Origin: a virus
Virus record (IMG/VR): IMGVR_UViG_3300035698_010466
Span: 26,936 to 90,935 of that record
DNA length: 64,000 bases
Reading direction: 5' to 3' (one strand)
The position numbers and the translations under genes were made by a program. Each line of letters begins with the position of its first letter. The first letter of the stretch is position 1. Of this stretch, positions 2,161 to 57,763 are shown piece by piece. The notes beneath the pieces are model-generated. The model saw nothing but the letters and a program-made list of their open reading frames with translations. It ran no database searches and was not told where the DNA came from.

Positions 2161-2220
2161 AATCTGGCCAGGGTGAAAGCGCGACTATCGCAAGCATAAG
2201 GTTCGACTCCTTACAGATTA
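2161..2220 (+). ncRNA. miniature tRNA-like RNA (acceptor stem and T-arm, reduced D and anticodon arms)
   Basis: AATCTG/CAGATT stem; TAAGG-TTCGACT-CCTTA T-arm; only 60 nt. Confidence 0.5.
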
Positions 2221-2232
2221 TTTTAATTATAT

Positions 2233-2304
2233 TGATCCATGGTGTAATCGGTAACACATAACACTTTGAATGTTAAGTACCAGGTTCAAATCCTGGTGGA
2301 CCAA
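2233..2304 (+). tRNA. tRNA-Gln(TTG)
   Basis: Cloverleaf; anticodon arm TAACA-CTTTGAA-TGTTA. Confidence 0.9.
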
Positions 2305-2383
2305 CTGAGTATCTAGATTTTTGTTTGCAAGCCCTTATTGTTACAATCGGCCGATACTAATGATAAGGAATCGAAAATACTTT

Positions 2384-2454
2384 CGCGATATAGTATAGTG
2401 GTAGTACATTGGCGTTCGAAGCTGGTGGCTCAGGTTCGATTCCTGATATCGCAA
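2384..2454 (+). tRNA. atypical tRNA, Pro/fMet-like body, nominal anticodon TCG
   Basis: Good acceptor, D and T arms; anticodon stem mostly G-U pairs with loop GTTCGAA. Confidence 0.55.
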
Positions 2455-2471
2455 CTATTGTAACTAAACAT

Positions 2472-2545
2472 GGCCCTTTCGTCTAATAGGCTAGGACACA
2501 TCTCTTTCAAGGATGAAACGCACGGATCGTAACCGGCAGGGGTCA
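2472..2545 (+). tRNA. tRNA-Glu(TTC)
   Basis: CATCT-CTTTCAA-GGATG; T-loop variant ATCGTAA. Confidence 0.85.
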
Positions 2546-2610
2546 CTAAATTAATCTGATGCCGTATAAAATATCGGTAGTATCTGAGGCTAGGATTAAT
2601 TTTTAAACAT

Positions 2611-2683
2611 GGATTAGTAGCTCAAATGGTAGAGCGCCGGTGTGAAGTACCGGAGGTAGGTGGATCGTTACCACCCTATTCCA
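2611..2683 (+). tRNA. tRNA-Phe(GAA)
   Basis: CCGGT-GTGAAGT-ACCGG; T-loop ATCGTTA. Confidence 0.85.
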
Positions 2684-2909
2684 CTGCATTGATTACCGGC
2701 TACAATCATCGGTCCTTTACCCTAAATTGTTAGGGAAATAACCAAAATGGGCAAACCGGGAAGCTTTCGTAAACGTATCCAAACCCTCAGTAGGGGATAC
2801 CGAAAAGAAATAAATTGTATAAGAAGCGAAAAATGGTCAACTCGAGATAAGGCCAGAGTATTGTATGAAAAAATATCCGTAAGGAGAATAACGAAGGGGT
2901 TTTTATAAT

Positions 2910-2991
2910 GGGTACGGAAAGTCATTTCGGATATGACAATCGGTCTGTAACACCGATCCTTTGGGGCGTGGTTCGAGTCCACCCGGATCCA
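2910..2991 (+). tRNA. tRNA-Tyr(GTA)
   Basis: TCGGT-CTGTAAC-ACCGA; variable arm; TTCGAGT T-loop. Confidence 0.85.
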
Positions 2992-3179
2992 CTAAAATCA
3001 TGGAGTATCGAAGATAACGTAGAAGCGGTAGGATTAATTTGCAAGAAGGCCTACAACGTTTGCAAACTCAAATTGATTTTAACTTTTAAATGATTTTAAA
3101 AAATCTGTGCTAATAATAACATGTAAAAAATTAGAACAGTTTCCTCGGGCAAGGTCTATGGAAATATTTAAAAGTCAAT

Positions 3180-3253
3180 ACTCTCGAAGCTCAAGTGAAA
3201 GTAGCTACGCTCTTTTAAAGCGAAGGTTGCAGGTTTGATCCCTGCGGGGAGTA
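3180..3253 (+). tRNA. tRNA-Lys(TTT), divergent
   Basis: CGCT-CTTTTAA-AGCG; D-loop lacks GG; T-loop TTTGATC. Confidence 0.7.
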
Positions 3254-3260
3254 CAAAAAA

Positions 3261-3346
3261 TTGGAAGTGATGAAATTGGCAAACATACTTCCCCAAGAGG
3301 GAAGTGGAAATATATTTCCGTAGTGGTTCGAGTCCACTCTTCCAAT
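3261..3346 (+). tRNA. atypical class II Leu-like tRNA (nominal AAG, C33)
   Basis: TTGGAAG/CTTCCAA acceptor; long variable arm; loop CCAAGAG lacks U33. Confidence 0.6.
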
Positions 3347-3555
3347 CAAATAAAATTAGTAAAGAAATCTAAATCTTGGATGGATACATCAATGTAGATT
3401 GGCAAGGATATTAATTTTATCAATAAGTAGCCGAAAGGTGTAGATAAACTAATGCATGATACGAGTACAGGGAACCAGCCCAATGACTCTACTTATGAAC
3501 TTATCGCTAATAGGTTTCCACCTTGGGAAGCGTTAAATATTCCTAAACGGACCAC

Positions 3556-3625
3556 GTCTGCGTAGTGTAATGGCTAGCATATCTGACTGTCTATCAGAAG
3601 GAGGGGTTCGAATCCCACGTCGACG
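3556..3625 (+). tRNA. tRNA-Asp(GTC)
   Basis: TCTGA-CTGTCTA-TCAGA; G73. Confidence 0.8.
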
Positions 3626-3705
3626 GCTAAGTTAATAGTAAACGCACCTAACGATTCTGAAAAGAACCGCGGACAAAATTCTTAGGTCTATTAACATTTT
3701 TAAAT

Positions 3706-3780
3706 ACCTTTGTAGGCCTCTTGGTGAGGAACTAGGCTGTCAACCTAGTAAGACAAACGGATCGTAACCGTTCAGGGGTG
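3706..3780 (+). tRNA. tRNA-Asp(GTC), second copy
   Basis: CTAGG-CTGTCAA-CCTAG; G73; T-loop ATCGTAA. Confidence 0.85.
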
Positions 3781-3785
3781 CAAAT

Positions 3786-3870
3786 GTTTCTATAGTTTAA
3801 TATTCGGAGTTAACCCTCCAGAAAAACACGGACTAGTACGAGCTTTAGGTTTGAAATCCTAATAGAGACA
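3786..3870 (+). ncRNA. tRNA-like RNA with a hairpin inserted in the D-loop and a collapsed anticodon arm
   Basis: GTTTCTA/TAGAGAC acceptor; GGAG-TTAACC-CTCC insert; TTAGG/CCTAA T-stem. Confidence 0.5.
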
Positions 3871-3877
3871 CAAATAC

Positions 3878-4022
3878 CATTCTATAGTGTAAGACTAGGA
3901 ACAAGTATTTAAGATAAGTATTCGACAAAGATCTATCGAAAAAAGGCTTAAAGAAAATTCTGTACTAGAACACAACCCTCATGGGGAGGGTAGATACAGT
4001 ATCAAATCTGTTAGAATGACCA
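3878..4022 (+). ncRNA. tRNA-Pro(TGG)-like RNA with ~70-nt structured insertion in the D-loop
   Basis: CATTCTA/TAGAATG-A-CCA; D-stem GTGT...ACAC encloses a CTAG...CTAG domain; ACCCT-CATGGGG-AGGGT arm. Confidence 0.6.
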
Positions 4023-4023
4023 T

Positions 4024-4099
4024 CGGGTGGTAGAGGAGTCAGGTTTATCTCGGTATCTTTGGACGATACAGCACGCAGGTTCAAATCCTGCTCACCCGA
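4024..4099 (+). tRNA. tRNA-Pro(TGG)
   Basis: GTATC-TTTGGAC-GATAC; C1-G72, A73. Confidence 0.9.
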
Positions 4100-4206
4100 C
4101 GACGGAGTTTTAATATTTTATTTTCTTCAAGTAAAGAAATTTTAAGTAGTCCTAGACAAAAGAAATTTTAAATAAAATGATATGACTGATGGAGAGACAT
4201 CAATAT

Positions 4207-4282
4207 CTGGTGGTAGAGGAGTCAGGTTTATCTCGGTATCTTTGGACGATACAGCACGCAGGTTCGAATCCTGCCTATCAGA
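4207..4282 (+). tRNA. tRNA-Pro(TGG), near-identical duplicate
   Basis: Same body as 4024-4099 with compensatory acceptor-stem changes. Confidence 0.9.
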
Positions 4283-4283
4283 C

Positions 4284-4550
4284 AATTATATTAAGTTGAA
4301 AATCTAACATTGTATTATGTTATACTAAATACCTTGGTACAACATATTAAGAATTGGTATTTTATTACAATTTCAAAACCTATGAATACGTTAGATTGAT
4401 TGATGATACTATAAAAGATTCCCCAATATACCAATGGTTTCAACAGTTGCGGGGTGCGAGAAGTGTCGATACGGATTTATAACCTGTATAAATAACCTGA
4501 CAGTCAACTTGGACTATTATTGTTTCATAGAGGTATGGCTTAATATAATT
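4284..4550 (+). ncRNA. candidate ~265-nt structured RNA, family unknown
   Basis: 14-bp closing stem AATTATATTAAGTT/GGCTTAATATAATT; internal AATCTAAC/GTTAGATT helix; no ORF. Confidence 0.6.
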
Positions 4551-4647
4551 TTTTAAAATTATCACAGTGGGCTGTTAATTAAAATGTTTAAAAAATATAT
4601 AGATGAATTTAATCCTTTACCAGGTATTAAATACTCAATAAATTAAT

Positions 4648-4735
4648 TCTAAGGTTGCCGTAGTTGGTCGAACGGTCCAGACTGTTAATCTGGTGAGTGT
4701 AAACTCCATCGTAGGTTCGAATCCTCCCCTTAGAG
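4648..4735 (+). tRNA. tRNA-Asn(GTT) with long variable arm
   Basis: CCAGA-CTGTTAA-TCTGG; GAGT-GTAA-ACTC variable hairpin; G73. Confidence 0.85.
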
Positions 4736-4771
4736 CGCAAATAGAAATCTTTAAAGATTTCAAAAATATAT

Positions 4772-4847
4772 TGCGGGATGGTAGCAGATGGTTTAGCTCA
4801 CCGGGCTCATAACCCGGAGGTCGGGGGTTCAAGTCCCTCTCCCGCAA
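4772..4847 (+). tRNA. tRNA-fMet(CAT)
   Basis: CCGGG-CTCATAA-CCCGG (three G-C pairs); T1-A72. Confidence 0.9.
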
Positions 4848-4918
4848 CTTTAAACATTTCTGACACATTAATGAATTTATATGTTGTGCGTATTGTTAAA
4901 TCAGACAAGCTATAATGC

Positions 4919-5071
4919 TGTTTAGGGATAGTTTTATAGTATACATACTAATTTTCTGGTCTCCCTAAGATTAGAAAATGTTAACGTGGTTTTATAATAT
5001 ACTTGGAAAGTTAAAGAGCGGACATAGATCCGTAAACTTTAACGATATAGGGTTCGAGTCCCTTGTGGAAC
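4919..5071 (+). ncRNA. expanded tRNA-like RNA (T-arm retained, D and anticodon arms replaced by long hairpins)
   Basis: AGGG-TTCGAGT-CCCT near the 3' end; AGTATA/TATACT and GTTAAAG/CTTTAAC helices. Confidence 0.45.
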
Positions 5072-5083
5072 ACTATTTAATAC

Positions 5084-5157
5084 GGGTCTTTAGCTTAGTA
5101 GGTTAAAGCAGTTGACTCATAATCAAAAGATCGCAGGTTCGATTCCTGCAAGGCCCA
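5084..5157 (+). tRNA. tRNA-Ile2(CAT, lysidine type)
   Basis: GGGTCTT/AAGGCCC acceptor typical of Ile2; TTGA-CTCATAA-TCAA. Confidence 0.8.
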
Positions 5158-5160
5158 CTT

Positions 5161-5334
5161 AATTCTTACATAAGGTACATTAGCAGTACTGAAAGAACTC
5201 TTAACTCTCACAGGATCGCAACCTTTAATGAGAGCTTTAAATGGCTTAAGAGATAATGTTGGAGTCCCTGCTCTATCATGCATGGTAACAGGTTATAGGG
5301 AACAAACTATAGGTAAAAACTCGACAGAAGAATT
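5161..5334 (+). ncRNA. candidate ~175-nt structured RNA, family unknown
   Basis: AATTCTT/AAGAATT closing stem; CTCTTAA/TTAAGAG and CTCTCA/TGAGAG helices; fills a tRNA spacer exactly. Confidence 0.5.
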
Positions 5335-5338
5335 ATAT

Positions 5339-5423
5339 GGAAGGCATCCGGAAGGCATGAGGAGCTGCTCTTGAAAAGCAGTAATGGGTAAGACCATCGG
5401 GGGTTCGAATCCGCCGTCTTCCT
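5339..5423 (+). tRNA. tRNA-Ser(TGA)
   Basis: CTGCT-CTTGAAA-AGCAG; long variable arm. Confidence 0.9.
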
Positions 5424-5599
5424 CAAACATTTTTAAAGTTATAAGCTAGTAAGGTCTGGGCGAATGGACACCAGGTTACCCCAATAGACAGATTTTAAAA
5501 ATGGGAATATTATCTTACATTCAGCTCTAATATTCTAAGTACATCAGAGGTTCAATTGGGAACACTTAAATGTTGAATTCAAAACTCACTCTGATAAAC

Positions 5600-5673
5600 G
5601 CGAGTAACGCATAAATGGTGGTGCACCTGCCTTCCAAGCAGGAACAGAGTCGGTTCGATTCCGACTATTCGCT
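5600..5673 (+). tRNA. tRNA-Gly(TCC)
   Basis: CCTGC-CTTCCAA-GCAGG; U73. Confidence 0.9.
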
Positions 5674-5683
5674 CAAATTCATA

Positions 5684-5825
5684 AGGTTTCTTACAGCAAC
5701 TAACTACTTTAAATCTGCTGCCTTAAATGGCTTACGTGGTTCGAACCCCGTTGCTCCCACTATTAAATTATCACATGGGAGTATGATGGAACTGGAAAAC
5801 ATGGCGGATGTAAAATAGAAACCTG
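5684..5825 (+). ncRNA. ACAGCAA-scaffold RNA carrying a circularly permuted tRNA-Leu-like body (Y RNA/YrlA-like topology)
   Basis: AGGTTTC-TTACAGCAA...GAAACCT-G closure; tRNA 3' half (V-arm, TTCGAAC loop, TGCTCCCA) precedes the 5' half (GGGAGTA, D-arm, GCGGAT). Confidence 0.7.
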
Positions 5826-5837
5826 GAATTTATTTAA

Positions 5838-5897
5838 AGGATGCTTACAGCAAATTAAACCAAATCAAACTTGAAAATTGAAAAACCATGCATCCTG
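5838..5897 (+). ncRNA. ACAGCAA-scaffold RNA displaying a Ser(UGA) anticodon loop
   Basis: AGGATGC-TTACAGCAA...TCAA(A)-CTTGAAA-(A)TTGA...GCATCCT-G. Confidence 0.65.
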
Positions 5898-5915
5898 AAT
5901 TTTTACTTACTACAT

Positions 5916-5988
5916 GGGGAATTGGTGAAATTGGCTATCACAAGACTCTTGCAAAGTCTAGTTTCCGAATCGTACTCGGAATTCTCCA
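5916..5988 (+). tRNA. tRNA-Ala(TGC)
   Basis: AGACT-CTTGCAA-AGTCT; G3-U70. Confidence 0.85.
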
Positions 5989-6036
5989 CTATTATCGGTT
6001 CAATTTATTGTGACTCCATGAATATATAAAATAAAA

Positions 6037-6819
6037 ATGGATATAAAGTATATTTGTAAAGAATGCAATATTGAATTTAAAACATTTCAAGATAAAGCTA
6101 ATCATGTTAGATGGAAACATAAAGATAATTCAAATTATTTAATAAAGGCAAGTGAATCTGCTAAAAAAGCTTGGACTAAAAAATTAGGGAAATGGGTAGA
6201 TGAAACTACTGAATGTTACATATGTAAAACTATATTTGATATTAGATATAGAGAAGGAAAGAAAAAAAATAAATATTTTTGTTCAAGATCATGCGCAAAT
6301 AGTAGAATTATTACTAAAAAAACTAGAGATAAAATATCTAAATCGTTAATCGGTAAACCTTCTCCACGTATTCATTTGAACATTAAAAAAGTTTGTGGTC
6401 AATGTAATTGTGAATTTGAAGTACGTGCTACAAGAAGAAATCAAAAGTTTTGTTCTATAGAATGTTCGAATAAATTTAGAAAAAAAACTAGGTCAGAATT
6501 TGCAAATTATAAATCTGAATGTAGATTTAATTTTAATTTAGCTGATTACCCTGATGAATTTGATTTTACTTTAATAGAAAATTTTGGTTGGTATAAAGCT
6601 GCAAATAGAGGAAATAATTTAAACGGTATTAGCAGAGATCATATGATAAGTGTTAAATATGGATATGAACATAATATCGATTCAAAATTTATTAGTCATC
6701 CTGCAAATTGTAAATTAATGAGGCATAATGATAATGTAAGTAAATATACAAAATGTTCTATTTCTCTAACAGAATTATTAAATAAAATAGAATATTGGAA
6801 TAAAACATATAAAAAATAA
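6037..6819 (+). CDS. zinc-finger HNH-like putative homing endonuclease
   Basis: Multiple CxxC and FCSxxC motifs; C-terminal SRDHMIS...HPANCKLM..N. Confidence 0.7.
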   Translation: MDIKYICKECNIEFKTFQDKANHVRWKHKDNSNYLIKASESAKKAWTKKLGKWVDETTECYICKTIFDIRYREGKKKNKYFCSRSCANSRIITKKTRDKISKSLIGKPSPRIHLNIKKVCGQCNCEFEVRATRRNQKFCSIECSNKFRKKTRSEFANYKSECRFNFNLADYPDEFDFTLIENFGWYKAANRGNNLNGISRDHMISVKYGYEHNIDSKFISHPANCKLMRHNDNVSKYTKCSISLTELLNKIEYWNKTYKK

Positions 6820-6838
6820 TAAAAGATTATTTTTAATT

Positions 6839-6914
6839 GCGATAATAGCTCAGTTGGTAGAGCATTAGGTTGCCAATCTAAAGGTCGTGGGTTCGAATCC
6901 CATTTATCGCTCCA
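6839..6914 (+). tRNA. tRNA-Gly(GCC)
   Basis: TTAGG-TTGCCAA-TCTAA; encoded CCA. Confidence 0.95.
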
Positions 6915-6917
6915 AAC

Positions 6918-6991
6918 GCTTCCATAGTTTAGAAGGCAGAAAACCCCGGATTTGTAACCCGGAAAACTCAGTTCGATCCTGAGTGGGAGCT
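6918..6991 (+). tRNA. tRNA-Thr(TGT)
   Basis: CCGG(A)-TTTGTAA-(C)CCGG. Confidence 0.85.
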
Positions 6992-7014
6992 CTCAAATAA
7001 ATCAAAAATAGTAT

Positions 7015-7524
7015 ATGATAGGTACAATTACAATAATTCAATCTTTAATAATAGTATCATATATTACTTTTCTTTTAATAAAATTTAAAGGACCTTTATC
7101 GTCGATATCACAATCATGGTATGCATTAAAGCCTTATAATTTAAGTTACTTATTTTATATTTTTATGATATCATTAGGTTTATGTATGGATTTTAGACAT
7201 GATCCTTTTTATTATATGTCAGGAATGGGTTTATTTTTAGTCGCAGGAGCGGCTGCATTTAGATCAAAATATAAAGGAACAAATATTCTACATTATACAG
7301 GAGTGTTATTAGCTACTGTTTTTGCTTTTTGGGGGCAATATTATAAAGTAGGTATATTACCACAGAGTATTAGTATACTCTCACTGGTCGCTCTGATATT
7401 TATCTTTTTTAGAAAGGATTATTTATGGTGGATAGAAATAGCAATATTCATATCAATAATGATAGGATTTGCAATACAAGATATGCGGGGTGGACTGGAG
7501 ATGGTTACCAGCTCGGGCTCATAA
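7015..7524 (+). CDS. multi-pass membrane protein; 3' end overlaps tRNA-fMet
   Basis: About six hydrophobic segments. Confidence 0.75.
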   Translation: MIGTITIIQSLIIVSYITFLLIKFKGPLSSISQSWYALKPYNLSYLFYIFMISLGLCMDFRHDPFYYMSGMGLFLVAGAAAFRSKYKGTNILHYTGVLLATVFAFWGQYYKVGILPQSISILSLVALIFIFFRKDYLWWIEIAIFISIMIGFAIQDMRGGLEMVTSSGS

Positions 7525-7562
7525 CCCGAACGACGAAGGTTCGATTCCTTCCCCCGCACCCA
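7484..7562 (+). tRNA. tRNA-fMet(CAT)-like, second copy
   Basis: TCGGG-CTCATAA-CCCGA; T1-A72; C73 then CCA. Confidence 0.85.
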
Positions 7563-7603
7563 TAACGCGGTTAGAGTTTCGCGTTTAAACAAAAACTCAA
7601 AAT

Positions 7604-7676
7604 TGACAGATAGCCCAAATGGTAGAGGGTCCGGCTGTTAACCGGAAAGATATAGGTTCGAACCCTATTCTGTCAG
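7604..7676 (+). tRNA. tRNA-Asn(GTT)
   Basis: TCCGG-CTGTTAA-CCGGA; G73. Confidence 0.85.
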
Positions 7677-7683
7677 CAAATAT

Positions 7684-7758
7684 GCTCGTGTGGTCAAAAT
7701 GGTAAAGGCGCTGGTTTTAGACACCAGAGATTTGAGGGTTCGACTCCCTCCATGAGTA
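7684..7758 (+). tRNA. tRNA-Leu(TAG) with short variable loop
   Basis: CTGGT-TTTAGAC-ACCAG; A73; no long V-arm. Confidence 0.85.
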
Positions 7759-7847
7759 CAAAGAAAGTAAGGTTAAAGATGATAGTCTGTAATAAAGCCG
7801 ACGACTATACGAGATGCATCTCGTTTCCGGTTATCTTTCTTTCTTTA

Positions 7848-7917
7848 GATGATATAACTCAATGGGTAGAGTAGGGCTTAGCGGCCTTAGTTACAGGTTC
7901 GAATCCTGTTATCATCG
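7848..7917 (+). tRNA. tRNA-like RNA with truncated anticodon loop (identity undetermined)
   Basis: Perfect acceptor, D and T arms; anticodon arm GGGCT-TAGC-GGCCT. Confidence 0.6.
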
Positions 7918-7937
7918 CAACAATAATATTCTGCATA

Positions 7938-8000
7938 AGGATGCCTACAGCAAACTAAACTAAACCAAACTTTTAATTTGAAAACACTGTGTATCCTGTA
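7938..8000 (+). ncRNA. ACAGCAA-scaffold RNA displaying a Lys(UUU) anticodon loop
   Basis: AGGATGC-CTACAGCAA...CAAA-CTTTTAA-TTTG...GTATCCT-GTA. Confidence 0.65.
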
Positions 8001-8003
8001 TAT

Positions 8004-8083
8004 GATCCTGTGGTGAAAATGGTAGACACGTTAGGTTTAAGCCCTAATGCTTATGCGTGCCGGTTCGAATCCGGCCAGGATTA
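8004..8083 (+). tRNA. tRNA-Leu(TAA)
   Basis: TTAGG-TTTAAGC-CCTAA; variable arm; A73. Confidence 0.9.
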
Positions 8084-8129
8084 CACGGTGGTTTTTCGAG
8101 GGTTCCACTTCAAATAAACCTGAGACCAT

Positions 8130-8204
8130 GCTCCTTTAGCTTAGTAGGTTTAAAGCGTGATTCTTACAAAATTGAGACCGGTGGTTCGAATCCACCAGGG
8201 AGTA
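8130..8204 (+). tRNA. tRNA-Val(TAC)
   Basis: TGATT-CTTACAA-AATTG. Confidence 0.9.
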
Positions 8205-8210
8205 CAATAT

Positions 8211-8283
8211 ACACGTATAGTTCAATCGGATAGAACATATGACTACGAATCATAAGATGAGGGTTCGATTCCTTCTATGTGTA
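8211..8283 (+). tRNA. tRNA-Arg(ACG)
   Basis: TATGA-CTACGAA-TCATA. Confidence 0.9.
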
Positions 8284-8297
8284 CAATAATTACAAAT

Positions 8298-8381
8298 GCC
8301 CCTGTATCTCATCGGTCTTCTAAACCGAGTCGTTAAATGAGTAATTGGAGTGACGTGTGGGTTCGATTCCCTCCAGGGGTT
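8298..8381 (+). tRNA. tRNA-Arg(TCT) lacking a D-arm, with an enlarged variable region
   Basis: GCCCCTG/CAGGGGT; only TATCTCA before TCGGT-CTTCTAA-ACCGA; 26-nt variable stem-loop. Confidence 0.7.
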
Positions 8382-8472
8382 CTAAAATTCAGTTTTCTGA
8401 CACCTAGGGTTAGTGAATAATTTAAAGCAGAACATAAGTGGTACACAAGTCCACGACTGAATTTTTTGACAT

Positions 8473-8543
8473 ACGTCTGTATCTTAATGGTAAAGTACTG
8501 GTCTCCAAAACCAGCAATGGGGGTTCGACTCCTCCCAGGCGTG
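8473..8543 (+). tRNA. tRNA-Trp(CCA)
   Basis: CTGGT-CTCCAAA-ACCAG; G73. Confidence 0.9.
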
Positions 8544-8553
8544 CACATAACAT

Positions 8554-8628
8554 CGATACGTGGCCAAGTAGGTGAAGGCACCTGGCTGATAACCAGGAGA
8601 TGCGCAGGTTCAATTCCTGCCGTATCGA
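8554..8628 (+). tRNA. tRNA-Ile(GAT)
   Basis: CCTGG-CTGATAA-CCAGG. Confidence 0.9.
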
Positions 8629-8633
8629 CATAA

Positions 8634-8718
8634 GGAAGGCTGACAGAAAGGTATTGTATTAGTTTGCTAAACTAAAGTCTGTGTCAAACCAGTGGGGGTT
8701 CGAATCCGCCGCCTTCCT
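8634..8718 (+). tRNA. tRNA-Ser(GCT)
   Basis: TTAGT-TTGCTAA-ACTAA; long variable arm. Confidence 0.9.
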
Positions 8719-8750
8719 CAAAAAATATTTTAAAAATAATCACCCAAAAA

Positions 8751-8797
8751 TTTTTATTTCCCAATAAAATTGATTATATTTAATTATAATTAAAAAC
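8751..8797 (+). promoter_or_regulatory. early-promoter repeat motif
   Basis: Near-identical to the core of the 1503-1910 repeats. Confidence 0.7.
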
Positions 8798-8804
8798 GGA
8801 AATA

Positions 8805-8972
8805 ATGAAAGTAACAATAATGAAAATGAAACACACCTTATTAGTTGAAGACAAAAAAGGTAAAGAGTCTCAAATTCCATTATGGGCTTTGATTGATGAA
8901 TGTGGTCATACTATGATACAAGTTTATAGTAAAGAAGAACCAATAGAATTACAAAAAGAATTAGAAAAATAG
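8805..8972 (+). CDS. small hypothetical protein (55 aa)
   Basis: Open frame directly after the promoter motif. Confidence 0.5.
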   Translation: MKVTIMKMKHTLLVEDKKGKESQIPLWALIDECGHTMIQVYSKEEPIELQKELEK

Positions 8973-9081
8973 AAAATTATTGATTAAGTGTACTAAGGTT
9001 CTGATACCAAGCTGTAAACGCGCAAGGAGGATATACCGACATCGCTGGTATGAGAAAACATGCTAATCAATATATAAAAAT

Positions 9082-9208
9082 TAATCCCGTAAAAGCAATT
9101 AAGAATGTATGCATACAATCGGTATTTTTAAGTTGCAACTTGAAGGCACCCCGTCATTGATGGTACTAATGTTCGACTCATTGGCAATGAATTAATTGTG
9201 AGGGATTA
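9082..9208 (+). ncRNA. stem-closed RNA containing an internal T-arm/acceptor-like minihelix
   Basis: TAATCCC/GGGATTA and CAATTAA/TTAATTG stems; TAATG-TTCGACT-CATTG. Confidence 0.5.
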
Positions 9209-9211
9209 TAT

Positions 9212-9285
9212 GGCGAGGTAGCTTAGTTGGTCAGAGCGTCGGAATCATAACCCGAAGGTCACCGGTTCGAAACCGGTCCTCGCTA
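9212..9285 (+). tRNA. tRNA-Met(CAT), elongator
   Basis: GGCGAGG/CCTCGCT acceptor; loop ATCATAA. Confidence 0.9.
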
Positions 9286-9287
9286 CA

Positions 9288-9487
9288 TTAAAAGAATGTC
9301 CATCGCTCGTAAGAGAGGAAGTTCAGGACATCGCAGTTTAAGGCAGGAGATTCAACGCTTATCGGAATCGTTCGTACTGCCGAGGATGCAACTTCAAAAC
9401 AGCTTAGAGGATGAACTGCTCATAAAGCAAGGTAGAAGGCAAAGATAAATGATGGACCACGACAGGATCCTGGCTATATTCTTTTAA
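9288..9487 (+). ncRNA. rnpB: minimal RNase P RNA (~200 nt)
   Basis: P4 signatures GAGGAAGTTCAGG and ACAGGATCCTGGCTATA; P1 TAAAAGAAT/ATTCTTTTA; P2 GTCCATC/GATGGAC. Confidence 0.85.
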
Positions 9488-9608
9488 AAATTAAATTGAG
9501 TGGTAGTAGGACGGAATATTGTAGGTTGCTGGACACAAACCGCAATAAAGGTAAAGCTCTAAATTGTAAAATCCAGTAAGGGCGAATAAAGTAACTCAAT
9601 TTTTATAT

Positions 9609-9683
9609 GGTGTTTGAAGCATTAAGGTGATGCGTCTGACTGTGACTCAGAAGAACTTGGATCAATACCAAGCTAATACCCCA
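9609..9683 (+). tRNA. tRNA-His(GTG)
   Basis: G-1, C73, CCA; TCTGA-CTGTGAC-TCAGA. Confidence 0.9.
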
Positions 9684-9717
9684 ATTTAATAAGTATAAAT
9701 ATTTTAAATTAATTAAC

Positions 9718-10227
9718 ATGAGCAAGTATACAAAAACATTAGTCGTTGATAATAGTTATATTCCACGAAGTATAATTCGTACAGAAAGAGCCTTTGTTAT
9801 TTCATATAAAGGAAATGCTGATGTTATTGCAGAACATCCAGAATCATTTAAGTTAGTTAATCCTAATTTAGATATTTTAAAGCCATCAATAATTAAAGTA
9901 CACAGATTTATTAATTCTCCATTTTATAAAGTTCCTTTAACAAGAGTGAATGTTTTTAGACGTGATAATTTTGAATGTGTATATTGTGGAAAGGGTGATC
10001 ATAAAAAAGAATTAACTCTTGACCACGTAATTCCTAAATCAAAGGGTGGTCCAGATTCTTGGGATAATTTAGTAACTGCATGCAAATCATGTAATATCGA
10101 AAAATCTGATTTAACTTTAGAAGAATGGGGTAAGGAAATTCCTAAACCACATAGACCACATTATTTAATGTTAATAAAAAAATTAGATTATGTTCCAGAA
10201 GAATGGAAAAAATACTTATTATTCTAA
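9718..10227 (+). CDS. HNH endonuclease
   Basis: RDNFECVYCG...LTLDHVIPKSKGG...WDNLVTACKSCN. Confidence 0.92.
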   Translation: MSKYTKTLVVDNSYIPRSIIRTERAFVISYKGNADVIAEHPESFKLVNPNLDILKPSIIKVHRFINSPFYKVPLTRVNVFRRDNFECVYCGKGDHKKELTLDHVIPKSKGGPDSWDNLVTACKSCNIEKSDLTLEEWGKEIPKPHRPHYLMLIKKLDYVPEEWKKYLLF

Positions 10228-10229
10228 AC

Positions 10230-10254
10230 AAAGCCTGATTAATTTCAGGTTTTT
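10230..10254 (+). terminator. intrinsic terminator
   Basis: AAAGCCTGA/TCAGGTTT stem followed by Ts. Confidence 0.6.
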
Positions 10255-10256
10255 AT

Positions 10257-10337
10257 GAAGGTGTACCTAAGCGGCCAAAGGGGATGGATTGCAAATTCAT
10301 TGCGAAAGCTTCGTCAGTTCGAATCTGACTACCTTCT
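10257..10337 (+). tRNA. tRNA-Cys(GCA) with extended variable arm
   Basis: ATGGA-TTGCAAA-TTCAT; U73; GC-GAAA-GC variable hairpin. Confidence 0.85.
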
Positions 10338-10428
10338 CTCTTTCAGAAATCATATACTTAGTTTATATTTTAATTAAACTAATGTTAATATATGCTATAT
10401 AAAAATATAGATAATTTAAAAATCCAAT

Positions 10429-56608: not shown

Positions 56609-57763
56609 ATGGCACTACGTAAATTTAATACATATAAGCTTATGACTGAGGCACAGGATTCATTAAAGATTTCTGTACCTAAAGATGTACTTGACTTATA
56701 TAAACTTTTTAAGAAAAATAAAAAGGAACTTTTCATTGTTGGCGGTGCAGTAAGAGATGCATTATTAGGTAAGAAACCTAAAGATTTTGATCTTGCGACC
56801 GATGCATTACCTAATGAAATTATTAGCATCATAACTAAAGGCGGTTATACAACAGCCGGTGAAATTGGACAGCAATTTAATATTGTCTTCGTTCAAGTTC
56901 CTTCCTCTAAAGAACCTATCGAAATCGCTACGTTCCGAGAAGATGTGGGCAAGGGTCGTAGACCTGATGCAGTTAAAGCTTCAACAATTGATAAAGATGT
57001 TTTAAGAAGGGATTTAACTATGAATGCTTTATTCTATGATATCGGATCAAAACAGATTGTAGATTTAGTTGGCGGAGTAGATGATATTATGTCAGGTACA
57101 GTACGCACAGTTGGAAAACCTACTGATAGATTTGATGAAGATAAGTTAAGAAAGTTAAGAGCATTAAGATTTGCAGGTAGAACTAATGCAAAATTAAATG
57201 ATGAAACTTCTAAAGCGATTCGTGATAATAATTCATTAGATGGTGTAAGTTCTGAAAGAATCAGAGATGAATTCAAAAAATCAATTGAATCTGCTAAATC
57301 TCCAAAGTATTATTTAGATTTAGTATCTTCATTTAATTTATGGGATGTAATGTTTCCTGGTCTTGTTATTGATAAATCTTTTGTAAACTCAAATGATTGG
57401 TTAATTCAAATATCACAACTATTTGGAAACAATCCTCTAGAAAAAATTGAAAAACTTTTAAATACTTATAATTTTACAGTAGACGAAATCAAAATTGTTA
57501 AGTTCTTAAAAGATTTGAAAAATCTTGAACCAAGTAATGTTTTTAAGACATATGAAAAATATGAATCATCAAAACTTGATAATAAAACAATACTCAATTT
57601 TGCTAAACTAAACAATTTAAACTTTAAATTAATTAAAGCATTTTTAAAGTATAAGCCATCAACAAGCGGTAATGATATAATGAAACAATTTAATTTAAAA
57701 GGATCTGCTATTGGTGATAAGAAATCTGAAATCGAAGCAGAAAAATTTAAAAAAATGTTATAG
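56609..57763 (+). CDS. cca: CCA-adding tRNA nucleotidyltransferase
   Basis: VGGAVRDALLG..PKDFDLAT, EIATFR, DVLRRDLTMNAL, RFDEDKLRKLRALRF, SERIRDE. Confidence 0.92.
   Translation: MALRKFNTYKLMTEAQDSLKISVPKDVLDLYKLFKKNKKELFIVGGAVRDALLGKKPKDFDLATDALPNEIISIITKGGYTTAGEIGQQFNIVFVQVPSSKEPIEIATFREDVGKGRRPDAVKASTIDKDVLRRDLTMNALFYDIGSKQIVDLVGGVDDIMSGTVRTVGKPTDRFDEDKLRKLRALRFAGRTNAKLNDETSKAIRDNNSLDGVSSERIRDEFKKSIESAKSPKYYLDLVSSFNLWDVMFPGLVIDKSFVNSNDWLIQISQLFGNNPLEKIEKLLNTYNFTVDEIKIVKFLKDLKNLEPSNVFKTYEKYESSKLDNKTILNFAKLNNLNFKLIKAFLKYKPSTSGNDIMKQFNLKGSAIGDKKSEIEAEKFKKML

What the first reader, a model, noticed from the sequence alone, without database searches (positions are those of the whole stretch)
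5684..5825. Circularly permuted tRNA-Leu body mounted on the same ACAGCAA scaffold
Seen: inside an AGGTTTC/GAAACCT closing stem followed by TTACAGCAA, a tRNA 3' half (ATCTGC, variable arm, T-arm, TGCTCCCA) comes BEFORE the 5' half (GGGAGTA, D-arm, GCGGAT), joined by a 17-nt linker. The scaffold replaces the anticodon loop. Known: bacterial Y RNAs (YrlA) have this topology, but with a different Ro60-binding stem. Inference: one scaffold carries either the anticodon alone or everything except the anticodon. This suggests a Y-RNA-like family, or a mimic of anticodon-cleaved tRNA that RNase P could process into a two-piece, LeuRS-chargeable RNA.
Basis: partly seen in the sequence, partly recalled or inferred. 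Interest (0 to 1): 0.8.

Follow-up and report, generated by a model that had tools for sequence, protein, structure and literature searches.

The report
Phage Y-like RNA carrying permuted tRNA
Inside a huge phage's tRNA gene cluster sits a 141-nt RNA in which a leucine-tRNA-like body, written back to front and lacking an anticodon loop, is mounted on a conserved "handle". Many phages use this handle on small RNAs that travel with a Ro60-like ring protein, so it is a new variant of the bacterial Y RNA (YrlA) design rather than a tRNA.

Summary
Window 5684-5825 (+) has a 7-bp end stem, UUACAGCAA, then the tRNA parts in permuted order, closed by a 10-bp helix where the anticodon loop would be. 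Details: 7/7 acceptor stem, A73, 17-nt linker, Leu-like D arm, T stem with one bulged U.

It is not an isolated oddity. A covariance model built from 35 similar phage RNAs, without this one, matches it end to end (45.4 bits, E 3e-8). In those RNAs 20 of 21 pairs show compensatory changes.

The handle family co-occurs with a DUF2828+vWA protein: 17 of 28 records, and 5 of 5 near-complete ones. Its predicted fold matches Ro60. This contig is about 30% complete and lacks that gene, but two relatives carry it about 67 kb upstream of the topoisomerase II gene.

Long-linker members often encode N73-CCA (6 of 16 in exact register; 0 of 35 short loops), which suggests RNase P cleavage and CCA tailing as in M. 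smegmatis YrlA. The phage encodes a CCA-adding enzyme.

Rfam YrlA does not match, and the GNCGAA motif is absent. I file it as a new variant of the Y RNA kind.

The handle has the same design as Dictyostelium Class I RNAs but scores below Rfam's threshold. The scan found this RNA-protein system before on at least 20 other genomes. Charging by LeuRS is untested.

The parts
5684..5690 (+). 5' strand of the terminal stem (AGGUUUC)
   Evidence: Pairs 7/7 with 5818-5824. The stem covaries across the family: all 6 modelled pairs show compensatory changes.
5691..5699 (+). Conserved handle motif UUACAGCAA, predicted single-stranded
   Evidence: UACAGCAA is invariant in 38 aligned members. It matches the 11-nt motif of Rfam RF01414. 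It is left unpaired in the MFE fold.
5708..5718 (+). 3'-side strand of the helix that stands in for the anticodon stem (UUUA, then AUCUGC)
   Evidence: Pairs with 5804-5814: MFE fold, duplex -10.3 kcal/mol, and 6/6 for AUCUGC with GCGGAU.
5719..5733 (+). Long variable arm (GCC / UUAAAU / GGC), a class II tRNA feature
   Evidence: Seen in the sequence and as a hairpin in the MFE fold. L170 carries a similar arm.
5734..5751 (+). T arm: 5-bp stem with bulged U5737 and loop UUCGAAC
   Evidence: Infernal's alignment to the family model puts U5737 in as an insertion. GUUC.A..C is conserved across the family.
5752..5759 (+). Acceptor 3' strand UGCUCCC plus discriminator A73
   Evidence: Pairs 7/7 with 5777-5783. 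The A73-C74-U context resembles the trailers of the array tRNAs.
5760..5776 (+). 17-nt linker between the acceptor strands, with U at -1 before G1; proposed to be removed
   Evidence: The equivalent linkers of other members start with N73-CCA in 6 of 16 cases, plus 2 in a shifted register. Removal is an inference.
5777..5783 (+). Acceptor 5' strand GGGAGUA; proposed RNase P site lies 5' of G5777
   Evidence: The 7-bp acceptor stem is shown. Cleavage is inferred from M. smegmatis YrlA.
5784..5803 (+). U8, G9, D arm (3-bp stem AUG/CAU, loop GAACUGGAAAA with GG) and G26
   Evidence: Closest to the D arm of array tRNA-Leu(AAG) at 3261-3347, which has the same stem. The D stem covaries in the family.
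5804..5814 (+). 5'-side strand of the anticodon-stem-like helix (GCGGAU, G, UAAA)
5818..5825 (+). 3' strand of the terminal stem (GAAACCU) plus G, giving the family's ..CCUG end
   Evidence: The 3' CUG also matches the end of the RF01414 model.
5838..5898 (+). Neighbouring short member of the same handle family (GGAUGC, UUACAGCAA ... GCAUCC, UG)
   Evidence: RF01414 36 bits against a gathering score of 41.5, E 4.5e-5. R1 32.5 bits.
7938..7998 (+). Third member (GGAUGC, CUACAGCAA ... GUAUCC, UGU)
   Evidence: R1 27.6 bits.
56609..57763 (+). Phage gene for a tRNA nucleotidyltransferase (CCA-adding, PolyA_pol family); proposed to tail the processed RNA
   Evidence: PF01743 at 112 bits, E 1.5e-33, at G000:83664-84041. 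ORF listed. Its role on this RNA is an inference.

Best explanation
Window 5684-5825 encodes a small non-coding RNA of a widespread phage family built like bacterial Y RNAs of the YrlA type.

The two ends pair into a 7-bp stem that is followed by single-stranded UUACAGCAA. Together these form a handle, which is most likely the docking site of a phage Ro60-like ring protein (DUF2828 + vWA).

On this handle the RNA displays a circularly permuted, class II (Leu-like) tRNA body. A helix in the anticodon-stem position joins it to the handle, so there is no anticodon loop and the RNA cannot decode.

It is transcribed with the tRNA array; tRNA-Gly ends 10 nt upstream.

Because it has a full 7-bp acceptor stem, A73-C74 and a 17-nt linker with U at -1, I infer three steps: RNase P cuts 5' of G5777, the linker is trimmed, and the phage CCA-adding enzyme completes the 3' end. 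The product would be a nicked two-piece tRNA mimic held together by its helices, as shown for M. smegmatis YrlA.

Shown here: the anatomy, family membership, covariation, and the co-occurrence of the family with a protein predicted to have the Ro60 fold.

Inferred: protein binding to the handle, processing, and any role in tRNA or RNA surveillance or repair during infection.
For: - Anatomy.
- Family size: at least 81 distinct RNAs from one pattern scan have closing stems of differing sequence, plus further members.
- Structure: on a MAFFT alignment of 35 members without the window, RNAalifold finds the handle, T, acceptor and D helices, with 20 of 21 pairs compensatory. 96.8% of cells pair against 64% in shuffles. 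The covariation score is 0.888 against 0.231 (0 of 500 shuffles reach it), and slid controls give 0.09-0.15.
- Membership: model R1 matches the window copy end to end, 45.4 bits, E 3e-8.
- Partner gene position: a DUF2828+DUF7788 gene lies beside the RNA in 10 of 29 loci.
- Partner gene frequency: it occurs in 17 of 28 records and 5 of 5 records that are at least 90% complete, against 711 of 50,697 GenBank phage records overall.
- Partner fold: the AF2 model has pLDDT 84.8. The top 13 PDB matches are all Ro60 or TROVE structures, E 4e-9 to 1e-5.
- Same clade: two relatives of this phage carry the gene, followed by handle RNAs.
- Cultured phage: in mycobacteriophage Rumpelstiltskin three such RNAs, one of them a permuted tRNA mimic at 66 bits, follow the annotated 'Ro-like RNA binding protein' and end at a terminator.
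- Processing: N73-CCA is encoded in 6 of 16 long linkers and 0 of 35 short loops. A CCA-adding enzyme gene is in the window. C74 without CCA is the rule for the array tRNAs. The precedent is in Chen 2014.
Against: - No Ro60-like gene lies in this 91-kb contig, so the partner is inferred from relatives.
- No RNA data exist for this phage, so expression, ends and CCA addition are unobserved.
- The T stem needs a bulged U, which could mark a decaying copy.
- No orthologous copy was found in the related loci that I hold.
- The linker does not encode CCA.
- Binding of the handle to the protein has not been shown for any member.
Confidence: 0.7

Rival explanations
1. The RNA is a free-standing tRNA mimic that works without a Ro60-like protein. 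It could be a decoy or sponge for host tRNA-directed enzymes (nucleases, modification enzymes, LeuRS), with the handle serving only as a stable clamp or a processing signal.
For: - No partner gene lies in this contig.
- 11 of 28 records that hold handle RNAs show no DUF7788 gene, although most of these are small fragments.
- The RNAs sit in tRNA arrays rather than next to the protein in many loci.
- The body keeps U8, A14, G18-G19, the T loop and A73.
Against: - All 5 near-complete records carry the protein.
- Invariance of UACAGCAA at the sequence level, next to a freely covarying stem, is what a protein-binding site looks like.
- Relatives of this phage have the gene.
Confidence: 0.15
2. [quoted passage not shown] It then acts as a charged, anticodon-less tRNA-Leu, for example to protect its 3' end or to report or titrate charging capacity.
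For: - A73 and a Leu-type D arm and variable arm are present.
- Other members encode CCA.
- Chen 2014 raised possible aminoacylation of the cleaved YrlA.
Against: - There is no direct evidence.
- The T stem carries a bulge.
- The bodies of other members resemble various tRNA types, not only Leu.
- Identity rules for the unknown host are unknown.
Confidence: 0.08
3. The element is a remnant: the 3' half of one decayed tRNA gene next to the 5' half of the following one, or otherwise non-functional debris in the array.
For: - The family model also gives a 35.6-bit hit across the junction of two real adjacent tRNAs at 8158-8254.
- The T stem is imperfect.
- No close orthologue was found.
Against: - The two acceptor strands pair 7/7, which only 3 of 870 cross-combinations and no adjacent pair in the array achieve. 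The junction hit at 8158-8254 has mismatches flagged in its acceptor stem.
- A 6-bp helix and a 7-bp stem also close the element.
- It carries the invariant handle motif and end.
- More than 50 independent RNAs have the same order of parts.
Confidence: 0.03
4. It is a true permuted tRNA gene of the red-alga or archaeal kind: the precursor is circularised, the linker is removed, and a normal decoding tRNA-Leu results.
For: The 3' half precedes the 5' half, with a linker between the acceptor strands.
Against: - Joining the ends would leave the roughly 40-nt handle where a 7-nt anticodon loop should be.
- I saw no bulge-helix-bulge motif in the sequence or the fold.
- Bacterial hosts lack the splicing endonuclease (general knowledge).
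- The handle is conserved as a motif in short RNAs that have no tRNA parts.
Confidence: 0.02

Closest known systems
YrlA, the tRNA-like bacterial and phage Y RNA bound by Ro60/Rsr (Chen et al. 2014, PMC4201824; Rfam YrlA)
   Same: - The paired 5' and 3' ends carry a protein-binding module.
- The order of parts is variable arm, T arm, acceptor stem-loop, D arm.
- The partner is a TROVE-like ring plus vWA protein.
- The M. smegmatis form has a 7-bp acceptor stem that RNase P cuts and that is then given CCA.
   Different: - The handle is UUACAGCAA after a short stem, not GNCGAAN0-1G.
- No Rfam YrlA match appears at E up to 10 in the region of the window around the finding, or up to 0.1 next to a phage Ro-like gene.
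- The partner family is DUF2828+DUF7788, which Pfam TROVE does not detect (0 of 28 records).
- The RNA lies in a tRNA array, and no partner gene lies within 4 kb or anywhere on this contig.
Class I RNAs of Dictyostelia (Rfam RF01414; Kjellin et al. 2021, PMC7919456)
   Same: - A 6-bp end stem that covaries, starting with G and preceded by AA.
- The conserved motif CUUACAGCAA directly after the 5' strand.
- An end of ..CUG(U).
- A median length near 60 nt for the short forms.
   Different: - Scores fall below Rfam's gathering score of 41.5: 36 bits for 5839-5897, 19.7 for this element, and no RF01414 match in 12 other loci.
- This copy is 141 nt and carries a tRNA body.
- It is a phage gene in a tRNA operon, not a gene with a DUSE promoter.
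- The known Class I partner is the RRM protein Rnp1A/CIBP.
- Whether dictyostelids have a DUF2828 protein could not be tested here.
Circularly permuted tRNA genes (Cyanidioschyzon merolae and others) and two-piece (permuted) tmRNA
   Same: The 3' acceptor and T portion is encoded before the 5' acceptor and D portion, with an intervening segment that is removed.
   Different: - There is no anticodon loop after any joining, and no BHB motif.
- The tmRNA_permuted model scores 13.7 bits against a gathering score of 47.
- The third acceptor pair is G3-C70, not G3-U70.
- There is no tag reading frame.

Membership tests
YrlA (Rfam YrlA; Chen 2014) | The 5' and 3' ends pair, and the body runs V, T, acceptor stem-loop, D | tested here: met
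YrlA (Rfam YrlA; Chen 2014) | GNCGAAN0-1G motif near the 5' end | tested here: not met
   5685-5712 reads GGUUUC, UUACAGCAA, CUAACUAC... and contains no GNCGAA.
YrlA (Rfam YrlA; Chen 2014) | Match to the curated covariance model | tested here: not met
   No YrlA or Y RNA match at E up to 10 in 5400-6100. None at E up to 0.1 beside the Ro-like gene of mycobacteriophage Rumpelstiltskin, where R1 scores 66 bits.
YrlA (Rfam YrlA; Chen 2014) | Encoded within 4 kb of a Ro60/TROVE gene on the same strand | tested here: not met
   No TROVE or DUF7788 gene in the 91-kb contig. The feature is met for other members of the handle family with the DUF2828 protein.
Phage UACAGCAA-handle RNAs (undescribed; defined here by model R1) | Covarying end stem, NUACAGCAA, ..CCUG end, and full-length match to the model | tested here: met
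   45.4 bits, E 3e-8, model positions 1-119 of 119. The model was built without the window.
Phage UACAGCAA-handle RNAs (undescribed; defined here by model R1) | Ro60-like DUF2828+vWA gene in the same genome | tested here: inconclusive
   Absent from this 30%-complete contig. Present in two relatives about 67 kb upstream of the topoisomerase II gene, which would lie off this contig's 5' end.
Dictyostelium Class I RNA (RF01414) | 6-bp end stem with 5' G, 11-nt motif, 3' CUGU | tested here: met
   GGUUUC/GAAACC, CUUACAGCAA (10 of 11 positions) and an end of CCUGG. The two short neighbours end CCUGA and CCUGU.
Dictyostelium Class I RNA (RF01414) | Rfam gathering score, length of 42-65 nt, and DUSE promoter in a dictyostelid genome | tested here: not met
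   19.7 bits for this element and 36 for its neighbour, against 41.5. This element is 141 nt. The contig is a phage contig.
tRNA (RF00005) | Cloverleaf with an anticodon loop, detectable by ARAGORN or Rfam | tested here: not met
   Not called in its native order. There is no anticodon loop. The acceptor stem, D arm and T loop are present, and the T stem has a bulge.
Permuted (two-piece) tmRNA (RF04321) | Model match, G3-U70, and a tag reading frame | tested here: not met
   13.7 bits against 47. The third acceptor pair is G-C. ARAGORN reports no tmRNA.

The most novel reading that the evidence does not exclude
The end stem plus UACAGCAA may be an old, portable protein-binding module that is shared across domains of life. 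The same module defines the orphan Class I RNAs of Dictyostelium. On this reading, those RNAs and this phage RNA are Y-RNA-type partners of DUF2828 Ro60-like rings, a protein family also present in plants and fungi. In this phage the module would tether a CCA-tailed, possibly leucylated, anticodon-less two-piece tRNA to that ring.
Probability: 0.2. Interest if true: 0.85.

Novelty: new variant of a known kind. Interest (0 to 1): 0.68.

Why it matters
Ro60-Y RNA particles are known from animals and from about 5% of bacteria, and their tRNA-like Y RNAs are still unexplained.

This element belongs to a second, far more widespread phage branch with a different RNA handle and a divergent Ro60-like protein. 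Homologues of that protein occur in 711 GenBank phage records. These include Felix O1-type, Listeria, Staphylococcus, Campylobacter and Vibrio phages and mycobacteriophages.

I found no description of the RNA family in the held literature.

The family is directly testable in cultured phages. Its members with an encoded CCA suggest a class of nicked, CCA-tailed tRNA mimics.

The shared handle design also offers a concrete hypothesis for the function of Dictyostelium Class I RNAs, which were reported as unique to social amoebae.

GenBank currently labels at least one stretch holding a match to this RNA family as aberrant tRNAs: 'tRNA-Ser' of 121 nt and 'tRNA-OTHER' in Cronobacter phage S13.

Tried and rejected
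- ARAGORN on re-circularised constructs of this RNA and six relatives found nothing, or only odd calls for L142. My first construct also carried an extra base. The result is uninformative and I dropped it.
- Rfam at E up to 10 gave no YrlA or Y RNA match. tmRNA_permuted scored 13.7 bits and I rejected it.
- Pfam TROVE gave nothing in the own contig or in 28 carrier records.
- RtcB is absent from the own contig.
- A search for an orthologous copy of the permuted element in 80 related loci and about 240 other loci by blastn found none.
- RF01414 at the gathering threshold on 12 carrier loci gave no match.
- Sequencing runs: no RNA holder is listed. Three salt-lake DNA runs hold parts of the stretch. 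Laid contigs had a depth of about 2. One contig, identical over 5734-5884, may come from the source sample. No information on ends or variants came out of this.
- Literature on DUF2828 covers only plant and tardigrade mentions. Motif strings returned primers only. Avesson 2011 is not held. The supplements of Chen 2014 are not held, so I could not check which 22 phages they listed.
- Whether Dictyostelium, or the Class I pull-down protein DDB_G0281243, has a DUF2828 domain could not be tested. The protein atlas and the search among longer proteins returned phage, plant and Trichoderma proteins only.
- An anticodon-stem helix as a general family feature is rejected. Duplex z-scores have a median of -0.1, and only a few members have such a helix.

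Full report
**Setting**

- The window is part of a 90.9-kb IMG/VR viral contig estimated at 30% complete. Its G+C content is 25-34% and all large ORFs lie on the + strand.
- It has T4-type topoisomerase II subunits. The nearest GenBank relatives are uncultured huge phages of about 640 kb.
- Positions 2200-10400 hold an array of about 30 tRNA genes.
- The finding lies 10 nt after tRNA-Gly (5600-5674). A 60-nt sibling RNA and tRNA-Ala (5916-5989) follow it.

**Observation**

All the listed elements are present.
- The end stem AGGUUUC/GAAACCU pairs 7/7, and UUACAGCAA follows it.
- AUCUGC pairs 6/6 with GCGGAU. The fold extends this by UUUA/UAAA into a helix of about 10 bp.
- Between these strands the order is: variable arm, T arm, acceptor 3' strand plus A73, 17-nt linker, acceptor 5' strand, U8-G9, D arm, G26.
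- The acceptor stem pairs 7/7.
- The T stem reaches 5 bp only with U5737 bulged. Infernal makes the same choice.
- The D arm (AUG / GAACUGGAAAA / CAU) has the same stem as the phage's tRNA-Leu(AAG) at 3261-3347, and a similar loop. That tRNA is the closest of the 30 array tRNAs. 'Leu-like, class II' is therefore a fair label.
- tRNA finders do not call the element.

**Not two decayed neighbours**

- Only 3 of 870 cross-combinations of acceptor strands from the array tRNAs pair 7/7. Adjacent tRNA pairs reach at most 6 and usually 1-4.
- The family model does hit a real tRNA-tRNA junction at 8158-8254, but mismatches are flagged in the acceptor stem there.

**The scaffold is a family**

- Rfam at a loose threshold matched the neighbour 5839-5897 to Dictyostelium Class I RNA (RF01414) at 36 bits against a gathering score of 41.5. 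It matched the 5' part of the finding at 19.7 bits. There was no YrlA or Y RNA match.
- A third copy lies at 7939-7998.
- Pattern scans of IMG/VR found many RNAs with the motif and a closing stem.
- One scan, for the motif followed by a T loop, gave 81 distinct RNAs whose closing stems differ in sequence: GGAUGC, AGACAC, GGUUUC, GAAUCG and others.
- In 55 RNAs, a 7-nt strand directly after the T stem pairs in at least 6 of 7 positions with a strand that ends 2 nt before a D arm. That is tRNA geometry in permuted order.
- On a MAFFT alignment of 35 such RNAs without the window, RNAalifold recovers the handle, T, acceptor and D helices, with compensatory changes in 20 of 21 pairs.
- 96.8% of cells pair, against 64% in shuffles. 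The covariation score is 0.888 against 0.231, reached by 0 of 500 shuffles. Slid controls give 0.09-0.15.
- The covariance model built from that alignment matches window 5685-5825 end to end at 45.4 bits, E 3e-8. This is the best hit in the window.

**Variation within the family**

- The helix in the anticodon-stem position is a minority feature, seen in the window copy, L156, L170 and L221.
- About half of the long members (24 of 55) instead fold a hairpin of their own between the handle and the T arm, in several cases with a 7-nt loop such as CUUCUAA.
- A few RNAs carry the tRNA parts in normal order, with the handle stem standing in for the acceptor stem: L116 and L207.

**Partner protein**

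I tested this independently.
- Clustering the ORFs around 29 carrier loci gave one dominant neighbour, a protein of 470-490 aa present in 10 loci. It carries DUF2828 (PF11443) and DUF7788 (PF25043, vWA-like).
- PF25043 occurs in 17 of 28 carrier records and in all 5 that are at least 90% complete. Pfam TROVE occurs in none.
- An AlphaFold model (pLDDT 84.8, pTM 0.84) gave Ro60 or TROVE structures as its 13 best PDB matches. These include Xenopus and human Ro60, Deinococcus Rsr and Thermus phage phiLo Ro60, over the whole length, with E 4e-9 to 1e-5 and TM 0.45-0.64.
- Homologues occur in 711 of 50,697 GenBank phage records. Mycobacteriophage copies are annotated 'Ro-like RNA binding protein'.
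- In mycobacteriophage Rumpelstiltskin that gene is followed by three handle RNAs with the motifs UAACAGCAA, CUACAGCAA and UAACAGCAA. The middle one is a permuted tRNA mimic (R1 66 bits). A terminator follows. Rfam YrlA does not match there.

**This phage's own partner gene**

- The contig has no such gene.
- Two relatives (76% topoisomerase II identity) carry it about 67 kb upstream of the topoisomerase II gene, followed by handle RNAs.
- In this contig that position would fall beyond the 5' end.

**Processing**

- Among 51 distinct permuted members, 35 close the acceptor stem with a loop of 3-8 nt and 16 have linkers of 9 nt or more.
- N73-CCA is encoded in exact register in 6 of the 16, plus 2 in a shifted register, and in 0 of the 35. 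About 0.25 would be expected by chance.
- Most of the CCA-encoding linkers have U at -1.
- The window copy has A73-C74-U and U at -1. 28 of the 30 array tRNAs likewise have C74, and all but one lack a full CCA; several share its ACUAUU/ACUAAA-type trailer.
- The phage encodes a CCA-adding enzyme at 56609-57763.
- M. smegmatis YrlA has a 7-bp acceptor stem, is cut by RNase P, and receives CA in vivo.
- From these points I infer RNase P cleavage at G5777, trimming and CCA completion. None of this has been observed for this RNA.

**Comparison with what is known**

- Topology and partner fold are those of YrlA with Ro60.
- The handle motif, the Rfam model and the Pfam family of the partner all differ. 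I therefore do not file the element as YrlA, but as a new variant of the Y RNA kind.
- The handle shares all four stated hallmarks of Dictyostelium Class I RNAs: an AAG start, a covarying 6-bp stem, the 11-nt motif and a CUGU end. Those RNAs were reported as absent outside Dictyostelia.
- The match stays below Rfam's threshold. The known Class I partner is an RRM protein.
- DUF2828 proteins exist in plants and fungi. I could not test dictyostelids.

**Standing**

- The scan has reported this RNA-protein system before on at least 20 other genomes.
- I found no published description of the RNA family in the held library.
- There is no expression evidence for this phage.

Noticed in passing
window 5838-5898 and 7938-7998: Two short (about 60 nt) members of the same handle family. 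Each has a small hairpin whose loop resembles an anticodon loop (for example CUUUUAA at 7970-7976). The first scores 36 bits on Rfam's Dictyostelium Class I model.
   Followed up: partly
window 2200-10400: 28 of the 30 array tRNAs encode C74 after the discriminator, and all but one lack a full CCA. Only tRNA-Gly(GCC) at 6839-6914 encodes CCA. Several share an ACUA/ACUU trailer.
   Followed up: partly
window 56609-57763: The phage carries a gene for a tRNA nucleotidyltransferase (PF01743, 112 bits).
   Followed up: partly
window 6037-6819: An HNH homing-endonuclease-like ORF (phrog_1271, phrog_23051) sits inside the tRNA array, right after tRNA-Ala.
   Followed up: no
L329 (Cronobacter phage S13, KC954775) 5894-6140: Two tRNA-like genes in normal order, each with an acceptor stem and encoded CCA. 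Their anticodon arm is replaced by a shared insert of about 30 nt: a CAAACU/AGUUUG hairpin followed by UAUUCAGCA. GenBank labels them tRNA-Ser (121 nt) and tRNA-OTHER. A permuted handle RNA follows at 6155-6289.
   Followed up: partly
L328 (mycobacteriophage Rumpelstiltskin, JN680858) 5470-5780: Three handle RNAs follow directly after the 'Ro-like RNA binding protein' gp54 and end at an intrinsic terminator. Two of them use UAACAGCAA instead of UACAGCAA.
   Followed up: partly
L325 2165-2228: In a relative of this phage, the first RNA after the Ro60-like gene has UUCCGCAAA in place of UUACAGCAA, between GGAUAAC and GUUAUCC-UGU. This looks like a divergent handle.
   Followed up: no
L118 4845-5279: A phage tmRNA gene (Rfam, 111 bits) ends 5 nt before a short handle RNA.
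   Followed up: no
L121 12005-12069: A type II hammerhead ribozyme match (61 bits) lies in a phage locus that also carries a handle RNA and the Ro60-like gene.
   Followed up: no
loci L019, L119, L146, L167, L170, L198, L205: A calcineurin-like phosphoesterase (Metallophos) of about 190 aa is the second most frequent neighbour of the handle RNAs, present in 7 of 29 loci.
   Followed up: partly
window 7848-7918: ARAGORN reports a tRNA with an undetermined anticodon ('ag'). Rfam's tRNA model scores it at 54.6 bits. It lies just before the third handle RNA.
   Followed up: no
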